DNA of 64,000 nucleotides, from positions 32,001 to 96,000 of the forward strand of contig JBHLRP010000006.1 of the NCBI GenBank assembly GCA_048882485.1, in the 5' to 3' direction. Both the position numbers and the translations under genes were made by a program. The stretch comes from Candidatus Thorarchaeota archaeon (GTDB lineage: Archaea > Asgardarchaeota > Thorarchaeia > Thorarchaeales > Thorarchaeaceae). The notes under the pieces are model-generated. The model was not told the DNA's origin, made no database searches, and saw only the letters and a list, made by a program, of their open reading frames with translations. Positions 36,265 through 44,509 of this stretch are shown one piece after another (within the stretch, counting starts at the first letter, position 1; each line of letters starts with the position of its first letter).

Positions 36265-36729
36265 TCAGATCTTCTTTAATGCAGCCTTCACCATGGCTGT
36301 GATTCGGTTTTCATCAATGCCCGTTTTCTTGGCCACTTTATCAATCTCACAATATGCCAAATCGGATAATGACTTTATGCCAGCCTCTACTAGCTTCTGT
36401 GCCTCATCCTTTTTGACCGCTCGTAGTGATGACAGCTCTTCTACCGCCTTGTCATCTTTCTTTGTCCTTTTCGGCTTGGCTACTTCAATCTTGGTCATCT
36501 GAGCAACAAGTTCATCGAGGTCCTTGATATACTGCTTTAAAGCTTCCACGTTCTCTTCATGGGTCGTCTTCCGTCTGACATCTATTATGAGGCCCATCCG
36601 GCGTGCCTCTTCAATCGCCAGTCCAGCCTTCTTTGTTTCATCAATACTAAAACCTCGTCCGCGCCGTGGATCTGCTTTGCTAGGCGACTTAACGAGGGGT
36701 TCTGCTGCTATTTCAAAGGTCAAGGACAA
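36265..36729 (-). CDS. rpl13e: 50S ribosomal protein L13e with C-terminal HhH-like extension
   Basis: RRGRGFSIDE.KKAGL....ARRMGLIIDVRRKT.HEENVEAL; tail EAQKLVEAGIKSLSDLA. Confidence 0.9.
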   Translation of the reverse strand: MSLTFEIAAEPLVKSPSKADPRRGRGFSIDETKKAGLAIEEARRMGLIIDVRRKTTHEENVEALKQYIKDLDELVAQMTKIEVAKPKRTKKDDKAVEELSSLRAVKKDEAQKLVEAGIKSLSDLAYCEIDKVAKKTGIDENRITAMVKAALKKI

Positions 36730-36759: not shown

Positions 36760-36816
36760 TACTTATTAGGCTTTCGAGATGGCAAGAGTCTGCATATTCG
36801 TGTACGCTAATAGGCA
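36760..36816 (+). repeat. Cassette site 1 (core A + right unit B')
   Basis: TACTTATTAG-GCTTT-CGAGATGGCA agagtc TGCATATTCG-TGTACG-CTAATAGGCA. Confidence 0.92.
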
Positions 36817-36987
36817 AATTAGTTTTCGAGGGATTTTAATGGTGCATAGATTATACAAAGAAGTACTCAATCGTAGATATATGAACCATTCATCACAAGC
36901 GTTATGGCAAGCACTCTCTGTTGCTAAAAGGATGCCCCCACCTACCAAACTAACTTCTCAATGGATATTGAGATAAGAGCGATGGTT

Positions 36988-37818
36988 CTATTCAAACTTT
37001 TCAAACTTATCTTTAGGCAATTTTGAAGACCGAAGCAAACCTTTCTGTTTCTCAATCTTCTCCTCTTGCTCATCTGAAGGTCGTATCAAACGTTTCTGCT
37101 CATCAATCTTCAACCTTCGCTCTTCAGTGAGTCTTGTTGGATCAATCTTCCCTTCACGAAGTATCTCCTTGAATTCATCGATGAGGTAATCCTTGATTGT
37201 GCAAAGTGAGCCACTTTCATACCTATCGCATTCTCGGATCATATCTGGAAAATAGTAAAAGCTTTCCCTCATCAAATAATGTATCGCCATGTCATCATCA
37301 TAATAGTCTGGTTCTTTTTCAAGAACAAACAAGTAATATTCCTCTATTATATGGACATCGAGAATATCATCACTATATGCAATCTTCTTTGGATACGATT
37401 TCGCATACTCCTTCAGGATACAGAAATCAACATCAGTCATAATAGAAGCGATATGTTCTGCTATAGACTTCTTCACAGTGCGAATAATACTCAACTGGCT
37501 ATCCAATGCCCCATCTTGAATGCGTTCTTTCAATTCAGCATCATAGATCCAATATCTAGAGAATTCAACTAGTCCTTCAAGTTCATCTTGAATCTTTGAC
37601 GGTAATTTCGAGAAGCTAGGAAAGGTTCTGAGAGCAAAGAATGAAGGTCCAGCCTTTTCATACTGCTCCTGTATCCCACGGTTCGTAGTCTTCTCATGTC
37701 GATTTCGATCAATCTTCTCGAGAATTGTGAGAATCGTACTAATCGAGTGGTCTTCATCTTTCGACTCTCGTGTTGGCGAGATTACACCTCTGTTGTCATC
37801 ATCGCTAATCTAATCCAA
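36988..37818 (-). pseudogene. Cassette 1 hypothetical protein; frame extends well upstream of the called TTG and contains one TAG
   Basis: ORF 36988-37533 frame stays open to 37809, preceded by TTG GAT TAG (TAG at 37810-37812). Confidence 0.5.
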
Positions 37819-37956
37819 CCCCCTGTACAAACGAGAAGTGCTCTACGATTTATGTCTTCCCAGCTCAGATGTGTTGCAATATCAACTCTGGTAGTATTAT
37901 ATGATATGTTAAAAGTGGAAGACAGAAGGGAGTTGCCAAACAGATTTATTCAGATG

Positions 37957-38013
37957 CGCGTTTAAGTATATATTAGTTGGCAGGAGTTCGCCTATTAGGC
38001 TTTCGAGATGGCA
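37957..38013 (+). repeat. Cassette site 2 (left unit B + core A)
   Basis: CGCGTTTAAG-TATATA-TTAGTTGGCA ggagtt CGCCTATTAG-GCTTT-CGAGATGGCA, then a partial B' arm CGCCGTTAG. Confidence 0.92.
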
Positions 38014-38041
38014 AGGAATCGCCGTTAGTTCATAGTGATTA

Positions 38042-38242
38042 CTAGCGTTTCATTGACAGGACAAGTGCCTCTGTCAATACTCCTAGAGCAAAGAGAGCAG
38101 CCAGAGGGAGAATGACGAATATGAAGGGGACTTCAGGGCTCATACCTGGAGGGTGAATGTCCAGAAGTATGAACACTATAGTAGCCACTATCAGAATGCC
38201 AGAGATCAGAATTAACTTTCTGGGTCTACTCATGGAGTCCAA
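38042..38242 (-). CDS. Cassette 2: small two-TM membrane protein
   Basis: 66 aa, two hydrophobic helices; similar to ORF 42381-42611. Confidence 0.7.
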   Translation of the reverse strand: MDSMSRPRKLILISGILIVATIVFILLDIHPPGMSPEVPFIFVILPLAALFALGVLTEALVLSMKR

Positions 38243-38341
38243 TTGATTTCCCTGTAGCCTTCACTCTTTGTACACATATGCTTTTGGACAACTCACAGTT
38301 CACTACGAAGAAGACTATCATTCGGAGCCTTTACTTAGATA

Positions 38342-38430
38342 GGCGTTTAAGTATATACTAGGAGGCAAAAGGCCGCTTATTAGGCTTTCGAGATGGCAAT
38401 GAAATGCGTATTATGTAGGAGTGACTGGCA
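38342..38430 (+). repeat. Cassette site 3 (B + A + B')
   Basis: GGCGTTTAAG-TATATA-CTAGGAGGCA aaaggc CGCTTATTAG-GCTTT-CGAGATGGCA atgaaa TGCGTATTAT-GTAGGA-GTGACTGGCA. Confidence 0.92.
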
Positions 38431-38566
38431 TTGACTGAGGCCGTTTGCTTTCCTGTAATACCTCCAGAACGAGCACTACCACCTGTGCTTGAGGATAGCA
38501 TTGCACGTTTGTGAATGAATCACATGACGCTCATTCTTGATTCTGAGTTTCTTGCCTATTAGTGGT

Positions 38567-39664
38567 TCAAGTTCTCCTCATTCTCAATAGAAACAAGCCA
38601 AGTATTGCTGCCCCCACAATCAATACTATGAGTATAGGATATAAAAGAGGTATGATTCCTGGATATGTCCTCGGAAATCTGTCTTCGTGTCCTGATGAAC
38701 CATCAATCAAGTATGTGCCAAATCCGAAATAATCATCCCAATAGTTGCCTAATTGATTTGAGTCATCCCAAGTGTTATTTGTTCCTCGATCGCGTGCATT
38801 GGACACTCCGTTTCGTAGAAAGTAATTCTCATAAAGCACATTTCCAGATCCTTCCAAATCAATCCCATACCCTGAGTTGTCAGAAAGGATGTTTCCAATG
38901 AATTTACAGTTCATCGCAAAAGCAGTTATGCCATAGGCACCAGAATCAGCAATATTGTTTTGTAGCACCTCAATCTGTGATATTTCATCCAGGTGCATTC
39001 CATGACTATTGCTTGAGTGAATTGAGTTTGAAATGATTCTTAAATTGGATGCATTACTGAGATGCATACCAGTCGATTGAGAGTCTGTAATTTGATTGTC
39101 TACAATACTTGTGTTCGTTGCGTCTATCATATCAATTCCTGAGTTCAACATCACATTACTAGAAAACGCACAATTATCAACACGGATTGCGTAGATGCCT
39201 TGACTTTGTTGTGACCGTACATCGTTACCAGTCATGTTAGTATTCTCGCACTCGACCAAAAGGACACACGCTGCATTCCCATCAATATCACAGTCCTCGA
39301 TGATACCGTTTTCGACATTTATGAGTTCGATAGCATTGTAGCCAAGTGCTGTGCTTTCAAACCAATAGGACTCCAGCTGACAGTTTCTAATGGTGAAATA
39401 TACAGTAGTATTGCTAATTGAGATACAAGAGGTGTTTGTAAAAATCCGTATATTCTCAATGATGAAGGGATGCGCGACAGAGCCATCCCCAGGCCACCCT
39501 TGTTCAGTGAAATTTGAGTCATCCGAAATGACTATTGGCGGATGATCTGTAGTAGCAATAGCGGCGTCAAGAGTTAATCGATTAATGGTGGTATATGCAA
39601 GAAAGGGTATTGAAACAATTACTAGTAGAATTGCAACTGATGTTACACGCCACACCGAATTCAC
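38567..39664 (-). CDS. Cassette 3: NosD/CASH right-handed beta-helix surface protein
   Basis: Signal/TM N-terminus, GWPGDGS...PFIIEN, repeated N.I..N..YGI coils, GNYWDDY, DRFP, C-terminal TM; AT-rich DNA. Confidence 0.88.
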   Translation of the reverse strand: MNSVWRVTSVAILLVIVSIPFLAYTTINRLTLDAAIATTDHPPIVISDDSNFTEQGWPGDGSVAHPFIIENIRIFTNTSCISISNTTVYFTIRNCQLESYWFESTALGYNAIELINVENGIIEDCDIDGNAACVLLVECENTNMTGNDVRSQQSQGIYAIRVDNCAFSSNVMLNSGIDMIDATNTSIVDNQITDSQSTGMHLSNASNLRIISNSIHSSNSHGMHLDEISQIEVLQNNIADSGAYGITAFAMNCKFIGNILSDNSGYGIDLEGSGNVLYENYFLRNGVSNARDRGTNNTWDDSNQLGNYWDDYFGFGTYLIDGSSGHEDRFPRTYPGIIPLLYPILIVLIVGAAILGLFLLRMRRT

Positions 39665-39833
39665 TATGACAATATATACTAATTCTGTTATTGAAGTTTA
39701 TCCCAGAAGATGCTCTAGATTTGTGAAGATCCCAATTCTTAATTGATTCCTTAAATTCTCAACAAAAGGCATCCTTGAATCGAATACGTAATAGTATCAC
39801 TATGGAGACAGGAATGATGATTTTGTTCAAATT

Positions 39834-39922
39834 CGCCTTTAAGCAAAGACTAGTTCGCAGGTTCCTGCTTATTAGGCTTTCGAGATGGCATTACTCTGCG
39901 TATTCGTGTACGCTAGAAGGCA
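39834..39922 (+). repeat. Cassette site 4 (B + A + B')
   Basis: CGCCTTTAAG-CAAAGA-CTAGTTCGCA ggttcc TGCTTATTAG-GCTTT-CGAGATGGCA ttactc TGCGTATTCG-TGTACG-CTAGAAGGCA. Confidence 0.93.
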
Positions 39923-39994
39923 AAGTCCAAAAAGTGACATAGGTTGATTCACTCTGTTCTGAGAGAGAAGAAGGAGGAAAAGGCATGACGGAAA

Positions 39995-40234
39995 GTGAAT
40001 AAGATGCATGAGGACAGAAGGAAGTGGTTAGCTGTAATTGTACTGGTTATTCCATTAATACTGATATTTCTCATATTTGCACCGTCATACTATGAAACTT
40101 TGACGATTGAAGGAAAACGTGTTTTTATGTTGGTGTTTCAGATTGTATTCCTATACACTTTAGGCGGTCTTGTGTTGCGTTGGCTTGAAGGTAGACATAA
40201 AGTAAAGGATGACTCAAACACGCCTTTGACTTAA
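39995..40234 (+). CDS. Cassette 4: small two-TM membrane protein
   Basis: 79 aa with two hydrophobic helices; its stop codon lies inside unit B of site 5. Confidence 0.7.
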   Translation: MNKMHEDRRKWLAVIVLVIPLILIFLIFAPSYYETLTIEGKRVFMLVFQIVFLYTLGGLVLRWLEGRHKVKDDSNTPLT

Positions 40235-40277
40235 CGCTAAGAGGAATTCTCGCGTGGATTAGGCTTTCGAGATGGCA
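40221..40277 (+). repeat. Cassette site 5 (B + A)
   Basis: CGCCTTTGAC-TTAACG-CTAAGAGGAA ttctcg CGTGGATTAG-GCTTT-CGAGATGGCA; lies between two convergent stop codons. Confidence 0.9.
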
Positions 40278-40289
40278 AAACAATATCAT

Positions 40290-41087
40290 TCACTTGATAT
40301 CCAGTCCGAAAACAGACTCGACTAATTCAGCAAATCGTGCGACAAAGCGAGCTGCAGGACCGCCATCAACCACATCATGGTTCATGAAGATACTGACACA
40401 GAGGTATTCTCTAGCCAAAATGCTATCATCAATGACAGCTGGCTTCATTGCGATACCTCCTAGCGCAAAAAGCACAGGAGAGATGCTAATGGGGATGGCC
40501 CATCCACTTTTTCCCTTGCCATACATTCCAACTGCTGTAACTGTGACTGTACCAAGGTGCTTCTTGACAAAAAAGGGGTCAGTTCTAAACTTTCGCCAAA
40601 ACAGGAAGTCACGCAGAAACTTTGGCAGTGCGAAAAGTCTTCGCATCATTTTTCGATTGATTGTATCAGAAATGTCACCATCTGTACGATATCGAACTGC
40701 CCATATTTCATCCTGGATCTCATGCACAGTTTTTTCATTGGCTTTTCTTACAATGTATGTCTGAGCTCCTATCTCTTCATCCACCTGTCTTTCAACCATG
40801 ACTGAAACATCTACATCTTTGAAAATGATCAATCGCTTCCCTTTTTTTATTGCATGAACATTTCTATGTTCGCTGACAGCTTGTGCGATGCACTTTGTTA
40901 TCCAAGCTGTAAAGGAGAGCTCTCTTCCTGAGCTGTCTTCGTACTCTTTAATTAGTTGACGGCCTTTTGTGACATCCACCTCTATTAGACCTGAAATATA
41001 GTGGGAACGAAGTCCTTGTTCCATTAATTCCACAACAATCTCACGCTCAAAGGGCTTTTCCTCATATTCTTCTATCAGGTCCATCAC
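40290..41087 (-). CDS. Cassette 5: stand-alone 2-oxoacid dehydrogenase acyltransferase catalytic-domain protein
   Basis: EVDVT, SFTAWITKCIAQA, GTVTVTAVG, MNHDVVDGGPAARF; no lipoyl domain. Confidence 0.88.
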   Translation of the reverse strand: MMDLIEEYEEKPFEREIVVELMEQGLRSHYISGLIEVDVTKGRQLIKEYEDSSGRELSFTAWITKCIAQAVSEHRNVHAIKKGKRLIIFKDVDVSVMVERQVDEEIGAQTYIVRKANEKTVHEIQDEIWAVRYRTDGDISDTINRKMMRRLFALPKFLRDFLFWRKFRTDPFFVKKHLGTVTVTAVGMYGKGKSGWAIPISISPVLFALGGIAMKPAVIDDSILAREYLCVSIFMNHDVVDGGPAARFVARFAELVESVFGLDIK

Positions 41088-41165
41088 AATCCTAGCAATG
41101 AGGATTGTAGCTTCAACGTATTACTGTTTTGTCCAACCAAAAAGCTCGAGAGGTTTGTTTAGACG

Positions 41166-41221
41166 TGAGATTAAGTATAAAGCTGGGACAATCAATCGCC
41201 GCCTAGGCTTTTGAGCTAGAT
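41166..41221 (+). repeat. Cassette site 6 (degenerate)
   Basis: TGAGATTAAG-TATAAA... then CGCCGCCTAG-GCTTT-TGAGCTAGAT at about the expected spacing. Confidence 0.6.
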
Positions 41222-41355
41222 AATGAAAAGGCAGGAGCATCTGAAACATTACTGTATCAGATAGAGTCATAGCGGCAGTTTTGCATAGTTGCCTGCGCTG
41301 AGAGGAATAATAATAGGACGCATTACATCTACTGTGAGAAGGAGGGGTCCACACA

Positions 41356-42180
41356 ATGAAGTGTCGAATAGGAAATTCCGAAGTTCACTATGAAATGTAT
41401 GGAGAAGGCAGACCAATCATCAGCTTACATGGTTTCACTCTAGACCACCGTTCGATGGTCGGCAGCATGGAACCTATCTTCGAGAGTAGAAATGGTTGGA
41501 AACGGATATACCTAGACTTGCCAGGACACGGTCAAACTCCAGGTCAGGAATGGATTAAGAACTCAGATAACATGCTGCAGGTTGTAATAGACTTCATTGA
41601 CAATGTGATTCCTGACACGAGCTTCGCAATTGCAGGCTTGTCTTATGGTGGTTATCTAGCGCGAGGTTTAGTTCATAATAGACCAAAGCAAGTACTTGGA
41701 CTACTACTAATCGTTCCTAGGATTATTGGCCGCTCAGAAGATAGAATACGTCCTGAAAAGGCTGTGCTGGTGAGAGATGAAGAGTTTCTTTGCAGCCTTG
41801 AAGAAGAGGAACGCGAGAATTTTGTAGAGGTAGCAGTAATCCAAACTGAAGACATTTGGCCTCGCTATGCAGAGGAGATTGTACCTGCTGTTCAGATATC
41901 AGACACACAATTTCTAGGACGCTTGCAACCTGGTGATGATGATTTCAGCTTCGAAGTCGATTCTCTCTCTGTCATTTTCAGTGGTCCGACCCTCATTCTG
42001 GTAGGCCGACAAGATCATTGGGTGGGATATGAAGACGCTTGGAGAATCTTGGAAAAATATCCTCGCGCAACATTCGCGGTCTTGGATAGAGCAGGTCATG
42101 CTTTGCAGCTTGAGCAGACTGAGTTGTTCAATATGCTTGTATCTGAGTGGCTTGATAGAGTAGAAGAAGCTGAGAAGTAA
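41356..42180 (+). CDS. Cassette 6: alpha/beta hydrolase
   Basis: LHGF, YLDLPGHG, GLSYGG nucleophile elbow, GRQD, AGH. Confidence 0.92.
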   Translation: MKCRIGNSEVHYEMYGEGRPIISLHGFTLDHRSMVGSMEPIFESRNGWKRIYLDLPGHGQTPGQEWIKNSDNMLQVVIDFIDNVIPDTSFAIAGLSYGGYLARGLVHNRPKQVLGLLLIVPRIIGRSEDRIRPEKAVLVRDEEFLCSLEEEERENFVEVAVIQTEDIWPRYAEEIVPAVQISDTQFLGRLQPGDDDFSFEVDSLSVIFSGPTLILVGRQDHWVGYEDAWRILEKYPRATFAVLDRAGHALQLEQTELFNMLVSEWLDRVEEAEK

Positions 42181-42274
42181 ATGAGGCCTCCGTGGCAGAC
42201 ACTCCTCACTCCTCTATGCTGCTATTGCGCCACACATTCCACTGTTGCTATGACGATTACATGCACTAGGATCT

Positions 42275-42299
42275 TGACCTATCACTTTTCGAGATAGCA
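42275..42299 (+). repeat. Cassette site 7 (degenerate core)
   Basis: TGACCTATCA-CTTTT-CGAGATAGCA in the gap between two convergent genes. Confidence 0.5.
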
Positions 42300-42380
42300 G
42301 TAGCTTGACGTCTATGCAGGCTTGTAAAGCGGATATCATGAGCATATGGGAGGTTTGTTGATTGTGATGTCTTCCTCTTA

Positions 42381-42611
42381 TCACTCCCGTTTCCTCGTCA
42401 ACACTGCTGCCATCGCCACCATTGTTAATGGAATGACTATACTCAGAGGCAGTATGATGAACAACAGGGGCATTTGGATGTCGATTCCCTGGGGAATCAT
42501 TTCCAGTAGCACATACACGATGGTGATAGCAAGCAGAGCTGTCATCACAATCAGGATCCCACCCCAAAGATATGCCCACCATGGCGCTCTGCCCAACGAG
42601 CCTTTCCCCAT
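42381..42611 (-). CDS. Cassette 7: small two-TM membrane protein
   Basis: ATG at 42611; GILIV..TIVYVLLE.IPQG...MPLLFIILPL similar to ORF 38042-38242. Confidence 0.7.
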   Translation of the reverse strand: MGKGSLGRAPWWAYLWGGILIVMTALLAITIVYVLLEMIPQGIDIQMPLLFIILPLSIVIPLTMVAMAAVLTRKRE

Positions 42612-42858
42612 GTATTCCTGATGAGTTCCTACCTTACTTGGTTGACGCAAGGAATTCAACTTATTCACTCTGATACTCGCTCTTTGCACACATATGCTTT
42701 TGCTCAAACCATTGTTCACTCCAAGATGCCATCATTTTGAAGCCATCTGAATGTGCGCCTATGCCTGAACTATGATGCAGAAGTTTGTCCATTGAAATCC
42801 GGTTGGATGCTATCTCCACTCGGTTTAGGCTAGTGTATACGGAGAAACGGTTCTGAAA

Positions 42859-43551
42859 TCAAAGAATGATGGTTCTCCGACTATCCAGCCAGAATGCAAC
42901 CAAAGCAAACAATGCGTATAGGATTTCTGACACCAAGGCGACAGTCAACATGTCTGGAAAGGTTTGGAAAGGAGTGATGATTATGAAGATGACAAGCGCA
43001 AACAGGAATGCAGATATGCCATATTTGCCCAATAGTCCGGTTCCTGAAGTGGTTGAATAGAAGTATATCAAGCCACCACCCAAGAGAATGATGGTCTCCA
43101 GTAGTATCGTTGCCGGAATGCTATTCCATAGGCCCAGTCCTATTTTCATGTCTATTCCAGGAATCAATAGCAAATCCGGTGTATGAACAAGAAAATCCAA
43201 GAGGTAATGAGATAGAACACCAACACCAAAGAGAAGAGCTGTTCTGTTTTTATAGGCGGCAGTTGCTGTTGAACTCCTCAAAGCAATGTACCTAACGAAA
43301 AGGAACACAGCCGCAGTCCAAGCAAGTGATCCAACTAGACTATGGGTAATTGGGAGATCATAGAGGTCAAAGGAATTAGCAGCTGTAAAACCTGGAGCAA
43401 TCCGAGCGTTCTCGATTCCCAAGGGAAGGAAGATGAAGAAAGCAATATCCACCAGCTGCACAGCGATAAAAAGGAAGCCAAGTGATATTCCCGGGGCATA
43501 TTTCTTTAGACCTAGAGCTATTCCATAATGTCCTATAAACACAAGAGTCAA
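42859..43551 (-). CDS. Membrane-bound metal-dependent hydrolase (YdjM/LexA-inducible-like)
   Basis: FIGH, QLVD, ITHSL, LSHYLLDFLVH motifs, multiple TM helices. Confidence 0.82.
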   Translation of the reverse strand: MTLVFIGHYGIALGLKKYAPGISLGFLFIAVQLVDIAFFIFLPLGIENARIAPGFTAANSFDLYDLPITHSLVGSLAWTAAVFLFVRYIALRSSTATAAYKNRTALLFGVGVLSHYLLDFLVHTPDLLLIPGIDMKIGLGLWNSIPATILLETIILLGGGLIYFYSTTSGTGLLGKYGISAFLFALVIFIIITPFQTFPDMLTVALVSEILYALFALVAFWLDSRRTIIL

Positions 43552-43594
43552 GCCTCAGACCTGAATAAAAGTATTGACATTTCAAATTGGCTCT

Positions 43595-44410
43595 TCAGAA
43601 ATCCTCAAGCGAAGTCTGTTTGATTGAGATGAAATTCTCCATCAGTTTCAGCTTCTGGAGCTGGCGTGGTGTGATACGTTCCATTAATTGTAGCATCTGT
43701 AGTGCATTGAATGGTGAATTTCCACTGAAATGATTGTTCCAGTACCCTAGAACCAACTCCGTCCGATTCATGATATCTTCTAGACGAGGCTTCCAAGCCA
43801 TTAGCTCTTCTTCGGAGTAGAGGTAGTTGTACCACGGATTCACTCCATGGCCATGCCAGCGCACATACGCGAAATCAGTTGTGACACGCAAATCAATTGG
43901 GAGTTTGGGCTCATCAACAATAACGTAGGCCACCCCATAGTCCTCAAGCAACCTTGATGTCTTCTGAGACAGCCAGCTCTCATCCCTGAACTCAATGGCA
44001 TATCGAAAAGATGAGTCGAGCTGCGAGAGGAAGGCTTCAAGGTCTGCCATCTTCGATATATCCCAAGGAGGAAGTTGAATGAGCAAAGCCGCAATCTTGT
44101 TCTGAATCGGACTCATAAGTGAAAAGAACGATTTCAGTACTTCACCCCCTTCTCCTAATAGATTCATCCGACTGTCATGTGTCACTTTCTTGGGGAGCTT
44201 GGCTGTGAAGAATTTGCCCTCTTTGAGTGAAGCCAGATGCTTTATGAAATTAGGTTGCGGGAGAGAATAAAAGGTTGAGTTAATTTCCGCAGTTTCAAAG
44301 ATTGCAAGATACTGTTGAAGGAGTGATTTTCCTGAGTAATAGAACACATCCTTCCAATCACTCTCATATGACCAACCACTTGTGCCAATATGGAGTCCTT
44401 TTCTTGACAT
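43595..44410 (-). CDS. DUF72 family protein
   Basis: IGTSGWSY, EINSTFY, KLPKKVTH, LIQLPP, AIEFRDESW, YVRWHG, YLYS, WNN. Confidence 0.93.
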   Translation of the reverse strand: MSRKGLHIGTSGWSYESDWKDVFYYSGKSLLQQYLAIFETAEINSTFYSLPQPNFIKHLASLKEGKFFTAKLPKKVTHDSRMNLLGEGGEVLKSFFSLMSPIQNKIAALLIQLPPWDISKMADLEAFLSQLDSSFRYAIEFRDESWLSQKTSRLLEDYGVAYVIVDEPKLPIDLRVTTDFAYVRWHGHGVNPWYNYLYSEEELMAWKPRLEDIMNRTELVLGYWNNHFSGNSPFNALQMLQLMERITPRQLQKLKLMENFISIKQTSLEDF

Positions 44411-44509
44411 TGTCACAATATGTTGATGGAATCAAATGGGTTTCTATCTTCCGGCATTGAAGAAGAGATTCATAAGAAACAAGAACTGCGATGCAAGTGT
44501 GAATGACCA

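What the first reader, a model, noticed from the sequence alone, without database searches (positions are those of the whole stretch)
38342..39922. Each junction is a triplet of dyad-symmetric units at 31-32 bp period, resembling tyrosine-recombinase core plus accessory sites
Seen: sites 3 (38342-38430) and 4 (39834-39922) parse as B(10-6-10) + 6 bp + A(10-5-10) + 6 bp + B'(10-6-10). All arms fit roughly (T/C)GCnTnnnAG on the left and CTAnnnnGCA on the right, i.e. imperfect inverted arms. The A spacer GCTTT is invariant and asymmetric in sites 1-6, whereas B/B' spacers vary (TATATA, CAAAGA, TTAACG, TGTACG, GTAGGA) and the linkers are conserved in length only. Established: tyrosine recombinase sites (dif, loxP) are inverted arms around a short asymmetric spacer whose identity is needed for strand exchange and sets direction. 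Inference: A is the crossover site and B/B' are helically phased (about three turns) accessory binding sites for the same protein, possibly controlling integration versus excision.
Basis: partly seen in the sequence, partly recalled or inferred. Interest (0 to 1): 0.85.

Follow-up and report, generated by a model that had tools for sequence, protein, structure and literature searches.

The report
Promoter-targeting integrase cassette sites, Thorarchaeota
These repeats are the joints of a stack of small swappable gene cassettes that an undescribed tyrosine recombinase of Asgard (Thor-) archaea most likely inserts into the promoter of a ribosomal protein gene; the enzyme is broken in this genome but intact at the same spot in relatives.

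Summary
The two triplets are real: dyads B(10-6-10), A(10-5-10), B'(10-6-10), centres 31.5 bp apart. But only sites 3 and 4 of seven are complete. The genome is a Thorarchaeote. A is the conserved BRE/TATA-like promoter of rpl13e and occurs alone at empty loci. B and B' are the right and left ends of 0.4-3.6 kb cassettes that relatives carry in other orders. Homology switches inside A (between -5 and +10 of the spacer), never in B or B'. Relatives encode a 291-aa tyrosine recombinase (intact catalytic residues; not XerA, not IntI) starting about 70 bp behind A-B'. This window keeps only 46 codons of it, and its start motif follows 19 of 34 strong B' ends. The same family uses other A spacers at other loci, including a second array at an acyl-CoA dehydrogenase promoter. 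Best reading: bare A = attB, B-A-B' = attP-like composite, built by tandem accretion of integrase elements and their deleted derivatives. Binding and directionality are inferred, not shown. The scan noted similar Thorarchaeota arrays before, without an enzyme. No paper found.

The parts
38342..38367 (.). Site 3 unit B (10-6-10 dyad), right end of cassette 2
   Evidence: travels with the left cassette
38374..38398 (+). Site 3 unit A (10-5-10 core, spacer GCTTT 38384-38388), crossover unit
38405..38430 (.). Site 3 unit B' (left arm strong, right arm weak), left end of cassette 3
38330..38340 (+). Conserved TTTAYTTAGAT motif left of B (also 37945-37955; variant at 39822-39833)
39834..39859 (.). 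Site 4 unit B, right end of cassette 3
39866..39890 (+). Site 4 unit A (spacer 39876-39880)
39897..39922 (.). Site 4 unit B', the best-scoring B' of all sites collected
36265..36729 (-). rpl13e (eL13 with C-terminal HhH domain); fixed left anchor; the start is probably TTG at 36723, behind the RBS GGTGA
36760..36784 (-). Site 1 unit A = attL core; on the minus strand BRE-like CGAAAG and TATA-like TAATAAG about 41 bp before the rpl13e start
   Evidence: promoter role inferred from position and family-wide conservation
36791..36816 (.). Site 1 unit B', left end of cassette 1
36839..36976 (+). 5' remnant (about 46 codons) of the cassette integrase
   Evidence: tblastn E 9e-14; profile E 3e-13
36770..37998 (.). 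Cassette 1 (1229 bp): integrase remnant plus a minus-strand ORF without Pfam match
37957..38013 (+). Site 2: B (37957-37982) and A (37989-38013); B' decayed
37999..38383 (.). Cassette 2 (385 bp): 66-aa membrane protein, shorter than relatives (136-142 aa)
38384..39875 (.). Cassette 3 (1492 bp): NosD/beta-helix protein gene 38567-39664 (-); 97.7% identical over exactly 1492 bp in G005, first in the array in G011
39876..40262 (.). Cassette 4 (387 bp): 79-aa membrane protein (+); position 1 in L130/L133/L145, position 3 in L072
40221..40277 (+). Site 5: B (40221-40246) and A (40253-40277); no B'
40263..41206 (.). Cassette 5 (944 bp): stand-alone E2-type acyltransferase domain 40290-41087 (-); position 1 in G009
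41166..41221 (+). Site 6: decayed B-left and A
42275..42299 (+). Site 7: decayed A (right half only)
43595..44416 (-). DUF72 gene; fixed right anchor, next to A in empty loci

Best explanation
The sites are hybrid attachment sites of a family of small integrative elements of Thorarchaeota. The chromosomal target (attB) is the bare A dyad, which coincides with the rpl13e promoter. An element's own site (attP) is B-A-B'. An element-encoded 291-aa tyrosine recombinase recombines A with A, giving attL = A-B' (followed by the integrase gene) and attR = B-A, and restoring the promoter. Repeated insertion at the same site stacks elements. Most have lost the integrase by internal deletion and carry one or two cargo genes. 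Where two elements with intact ends meet, a full B-A-B' triplet appears (sites 3 and 4). B and B' are most likely non-exchanging binding sites for the same enzyme, three helical turns from the core, that favour integration or choose partners as TnpI's DR1/DR2 do; B' may also repress the integrase gene. SHOWN by comparison: empty and filled loci, cassette borders in A, different orders, integrase gene position, shared arm motif. INFERRED: catalysis by this enzyme, binding to B/B', directionality, circular intermediates, promoter activity. Odds: A is the crossover core of this integrase about 0.9; B/B' bind it about 0.75; they steer direction about 0.5.
For: Empty loci with A alone between rpl13e and DUF72 (L104, L105, L131). 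L131 (empty) against L158 (filled, 1858 bp): 19-bp shared core duplicated at both ends. Linkage: positions -6 and further left follow the left flank, +11 and further right follow the right flank. Whole-cassette homology from A to A in other orders. Integrase directly behind A-B' at rpl13e in L158/L151, L101, L180 and L192. Invariant R124, K150, H215, R218, W241, Y251; PF00589 E 5e-24; best fold match XerA, core-binding plus catalytic domain. The integrase start motif follows 19 of 34 strong B' ends against 2 of 98 others (Fisher P 7e-12, sites not independent). Close integrase homologues at other loci are preceded by the same A-6-B' geometry with other spacers: CATTT, TTAAT, AGAGA, TCCTT. Arms kept while the spacer changes with the target is the signature of a tyrosine-recombinase core.
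Against: No intact copy of the enzyme in this assembly (90.5% complete). Many cassettes without a recognisable B' still occur at different positions, including position 1 (cassette 5), so B' may be dispensable. Position +9 of A follows neither flank, so the cut site is not resolved. A-right hardly matches the arm consensus. Two integrase-bearing rpl13e loci (G018, G109) show no attR. No circular or excised form was seen. No replication or transfer gene lies in the 1.86-kb element, so its vehicle is unknown.
Confidence: 0.75

Rival explanations
1. A is the crossover core, but B and B' are transcriptional elements: B' is the integrase's autorepression operator, and B (TTTAAGTATA) a TATA-like promoter or operator; they play no part in the synapse.
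For: B' lies 25-50 bp before the integrase start and is best kept where that start is kept. B contains an AT-rich TATA-like stretch. B' is lost from many mobile cassettes.
Against: B-to-A and A-to-B' distances are fixed at 31.5 bp across arrays and targets. B is far from any integrase gene in the integrated state. B' persists in cassettes without any integrase frame. Cargo orientation is unbiased (27 minus, 21 plus).
Confidence: 0.13
2. B and B' are bound by a separate host or element protein (an architectural or directionality factor), not by the integrase.
For: The extra TTTAYTTAGAT motif left of B suggests a further factor. Lambda-type attP sites carry sites for other proteins (PMC8371274).
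Against: B and B' arms match a matrix trained on A-left arms alone. No second conserved gene accompanies the integrase.
Confidence: 0.07
3. Host XerA acts on dif-like sites, as with pdif modules or IMEXs.
For: B can be read as a dif-like 11-6-11 dyad. The closest solved fold of the enzyme is XerA.
Against: Breakpoints lie in A, not B. No PF00589 match in this genome or in 12 of 16 genus genomes searched. The linked enzyme fails the XerA model that true XerAs pass (89 against 270 and 285; cut-off 220).
Confidence: 0.03
4. An integron: IntI with attI and hairpin attC sites.
For: Polarised array of single-gene cassettes in variable order; integrons occur in Asgard genomes (bioRxiv 10.1101/2022.02.06.479319).
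Against: No significant hairpin on either strand (z from -0.94 to +0.97); no GTT crossover; TIGR02249 45 against a cut-off of 265; enzyme collinear with XerA without the IntI insertion; cargo not co-oriented.
Confidence: 0.01

Closest known systems
Tandem accretion of ICEs/IMEs and CIMEs at one att site (Streptococcus ICESt1 family; review PMC5704250)
   Same: Site-specific elements stack at one target; decayed members lose the integrase but keep attL and attR.
   Different: Units are only 0.4-3.6 kb (median 0.9 kb, 48 types) with no conjugation or mobilisation module. The target is a promoter, not a gene 3' end. Deleted units recur near-identical in other genomes and orders. Archaeal host.
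Lambda-type attP x attB (as described in PMC8371274)
   Same: Simple chromosomal site, complex element site with extra sites on both sides, short identical core (15-19 bp here).
   Different: The extra sites are core-like inverted dyads, not arm-type sites. The 291-aa enzyme has no N-terminal arm-binding domain. attP is about 100 bp, not 240 bp.
Tn4430 TnpI/IRS (PMC2847244)
   Same: A tyrosine recombinase with a core plus adjacent binding motifs for the same protein that control selectivity and order of exchange.
   Different: TnpI's DR1/DR2 are direct repeats on one side and serve resolution. Here the extra units are dyads on both sides, split between attL and attR. Their function is untested.
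Integrons and CALINs, including archaeal ones (Ghaly et al., bioRxiv 10.1101/2022.02.06.479319)
   Same: Works like one: polarised, variable array of single-gene cassettes, often with no integrase nearby.
   Different: No attC hairpin, no IntI, integrase is itself cassette-borne, cargo in both orientations.
XerA/dif and pdif modules (own knowledge; PMC8371274 for XerA)
   Same: Enzyme size and fold; dyads with 6-bp spacers.
   Different: Not a XerA by NCBIfam; dif-like B units do not exchange; several targets with different spacers.

Membership tests
Tyrosine recombinase (integrase family) | Catalytic R-K-H-R-(H/W)-Y residues and fold | tested here: met
   R124, K150, H215, R218, W241, Y251 invariant; PF00589 above cut-off; Foldseek XerA E 1e-10. 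Applies to relatives' intact copies; the window holds only a remnant.
Tyrosine-recombinase att system | Empty site and filled site with duplicated core at both ends | tested here: met
   L131 against L158; L104 and L105 empty
Tyrosine-recombinase att system | Inverted arms around a short spacer that is identical between partners and differs between targets | tested here: met
   GCTTT in 76 of 80 sites; other spacers with like arms at other targets; A-right arm is degenerate
Tyrosine-recombinase att system | Strand exchange at the edges of a 6-8 bp overlap | tested here: inconclusive
   Mapped only to -5..+10; +9 follows neither flank
TnpI-like accessory-site control | Recombinase binds the flanking motifs and they bias the reaction | not testable with these tools
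   Only shared motif and fixed phasing shown
ICE/IME-CIME tandem accretion | Integrase-less units keeping att ends next to integrase-bearing relatives | tested here: met
   Integrase start motif or remnant behind B'
ICE/IME-CIME tandem accretion | Conjugation or mobilisation module in the autonomous element | tested here: not met
   The complete 1858-bp element holds only integrase and short ORFs
Integron | IntI with its specific insertion | tested here: not met
   TIGR02249 45 against 265; collinear with XerA
Integron | attC hairpin with RYYYAAC/GTTRRRY cores | tested here: not met
   No folding above shuffles; no such cores at the crossover
Integron | Co-oriented cassette genes | tested here: not met
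   27 minus and 21 plus, P 0.47
XerA/dif | XerA orthologue | tested here: not met
   NF040815 85-93 against 220; controls 270 and 285; no PF00589 match in G000
tRNA- or ncRNA-targeted islands | Repeat is part of an RNA gene | tested here: not met
   No tRNA in the window; no Rfam match at E up to 1

The most novel reading that the evidence does not exclude
A self-contained integron analogue of Asgard archaea: one integrase family reads the BRE/TATA region of housekeeping promoters as its landing site; symmetric, three-turn-phased dyads for the same protein set direction; single-gene cassettes are excised, reordered and passed between different promoter arrays by swapping only the core, with the enzyme supplied in trans by a visiting element.
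Probability: 0.3. Interest if true: 0.87.

Novelty: new variant of a known kind. Interest (0 to 1): 0.7.

Why it matters
It gives a named enzyme and a defined site for a gene-collecting hotspot in Thorarchaeota, relatives of the eukaryote ancestor, whose routes of gene gain are poorly known. A compact 291-aa recombinase with a 25-bp target, a natural series of different spacers and possibly built-in directionality can be tested in vitro at once. Targeting of promoters and split core-like accessory dyads were not found in the papers searched. It also offers the missing enzyme for at least one array that this scan reported without one (acyl-CoA dehydrogenase promoter).

Tried and rejected
No intact tyrosine recombinase in the own genome by PF00589 (E up to 10) or a local profile; only remnants at window 36839-36976 and C1:203391-203498. 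Core not found in viral contigs; viral relatives of the integrase only 23-32% identical. RNA gene, tRNA and attC hairpin rejected. The idea that each A copy drives the cargo gene to its left is not supported by orientation. The sigma-70 scan is not applicable to archaea and was at chance. The joint 38398 to 40258 in three runs is not an excision in this strain: that contig differs at 43 of 276 letters and its loose end is an rpl13e-type flank, so it is another Thorarchaeote with cassette 5 in first place. No RNA holder listed. No attR found within the fetched DNA for integrases in L188, L189, L195, G018 and G109. Many metagenome pattern hits were chance matches in bacterial genes and were left out. 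The GC-skew minimum near 38-39 kb was not taken as evidence for dif or an origin. No complex prediction was run.

Full report
Observation. The 20-bp core occurs five times in the 3.96-Mb assembly, all between 36765 and 40278, and nowhere else at up to three mismatches. Decayed copies follow at 41207 and 42285. A matrix trained only on A-left arms recovers B-left, B-right and both B' arms at fixed offsets, 31.5 bp centre to centre, well above background, but finds nothing at the B position of rpl13e-proximal sites. The title overstates: only sites 3 and 4 are full triplets, and A-right keeps only the outer GCA of the arm motif. Contigs of other runs reproduce the region.

Context. Record titles of matching loci name Thorarchaeota. 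A single A lies about 41 bp upstream of rpl13e in 21 of 36 family genomes searched. On the minus strand it reads like BRE plus TATA, followed by an RBS; promoter function is inferred. Between rpl13e and a DUF72 gene, relatives hold from none to several modules. L104, L105 and L131 are empty.

The modules are discrete and mobile. Cassette 3, bounded by the two sites of the finding, is 97.7% identical over exactly 1492 bp in G005, where other neighbours flank it, and is first in G011. Cassette 4 is first in L130, L133 and L145 and third in L072; cassette 5 is first in G009. Across 80 sites, positions -6 and left follow the left flank and +11 and right follow the right flank; +9 follows neither. 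So exchange happens within -5..+10 of A, and B and B' never exchange. B is a cassette's right end and B' its left end; a triplet is a composite of two neighbours.

The enzyme. This genome has no PF00589 match. In L158/L151 the first module (1858 bp, A to A) encodes a 291-aa tyrosine recombinase that starts 71 bp after the spacer, right behind B'. The same arrangement is at rpl13e in L101, L180 and L192. L158 differs from the empty L131 by this insert and a 19-bp core duplication. The catalytic residues are invariant, the model (pLDDT 84) matches XerA best and has no arm-binding domain, and the family fails the XerA and IntI cut-offs that control XerAs pass. It is a small, distinct family (13 proteins at E up to 1e-20). 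Cassette 1 of the window keeps the first 46 codons. The integrase start motif follows 19 of 34 strong B' ends but only 2 of 98 other ends, so many cassettes are internally deleted integrase elements that carry cargo.

Other targets. Homologues 54-67% identical sit behind the same A-6-B' geometry with spacers CATTT, AGAGA and TTAAT. A second array with spacer TCCTT lies just upstream of an acyl-CoA dehydrogenase gene, again reading like BRE plus TATA, mostly in genus g5. It has the same B ends, integrase 5' pieces behind B' (L170, L177), and cassette bodies up to 91% identical to those of rpl13e arrays. Ends and cargo therefore move between targets while the core changes.

Mechanism. Bare A acts as attB and B-A-B' as attP; integration gives A-B' plus integrase on the rpl13e side and B-A on the far side, and restores the promoter. 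Repeated insertion and deletion of the integrase build the array, as in CIME accretion (PMC5704250). B and B' most likely bind the same enzyme, as TnpI binds DR1 and DR2 (PMC2847244), and bias the reaction; B' may also repress the integrase. Binding, direction, circles and the transfer vehicle are not shown. Against a strict need for B': cassettes without it also occupy first positions.

Comparison. It works like an integron but is not one: no attC fold, no IntI, no co-orientation. It is not XerA/dif and not an RNA-gene island. It has the asymmetry of lambda attP x attB (PMC8371274) with core-like dyads instead of arm sites. Searches of the paper library found no description; that library is incomplete. 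Earlier AI notes of this scan describe comparable Thorarchaeota arrays without an enzyme, and none matched the integrase; they are not counted as support.

Verdict.

Noticed in passing
G000:C3:143420 (- strand): A-like dyad (spacer GATTT) with a B'-like left arm, at the locus where L189 and G004 carry the integrase: a second target site in this genome.
   Followed up: partly
G000:C1:203391-203498: C-terminal fragment of the same integrase family (47% over 36 aa), with no site recognised nearby.
   Followed up: partly
L263 (G018:C17:1-20000): A 96%-identical integrase copy is followed by mostly unknown ORFs, a TIR-domain protein, two weak HNH hits and a D5-like primase/helicase: possibly a larger replicating element that supplies the enzyme.
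   Followed up: partly
L193:1-100, L194:1-75, L196:1-98: More distant integrases (about 45%) are preceded by a different long inverted repeat rather than A-B'.
   Followed up: no
G000 and genus g1: No XerA-like recombinase found in this genome, and no PF00589 match in 12 of 16 incomplete genus genomes searched; Thorarchaeota may lack XerA.
   Followed up: partly
window 36265-36729: eL13 carries a C-terminal helix-hairpin-helix-like extension (weak HHH_5/DUF4332 hits); some relatives have longer linkers.
   Followed up: no
window 40290-41087: Stand-alone E2-type acyltransferase domain; divergent copies from co-occurring organisms pile up on it in sediment runs, and G011:C60 has two.
   Followed up: partly
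window 36988-37810: The cassette 1 frame stays open about 90 codons upstream of its first ATG/GTG/TTG; the start may be non-standard or lost. No Pfam match.
   Followed up: no
L136, L146, L112, L128, L077: GCTTT-type sites with cassettes on contigs without rpl13e, next to other core genes (for example a membrane oxidoreductase-like operon): secondary or rearranged arrays.
   Followed up: partly
L239 (G078:C50:1139): A canonical B end followed by yet another core (spacer CTCTT) at a further locus.
   Followed up: no
window 41207-43590: Hydrolase, small membrane protein and YdjM-like genes beyond site 6 recur in relatives' arrays and look like older cassettes with decayed sites.
   Followed up: partly
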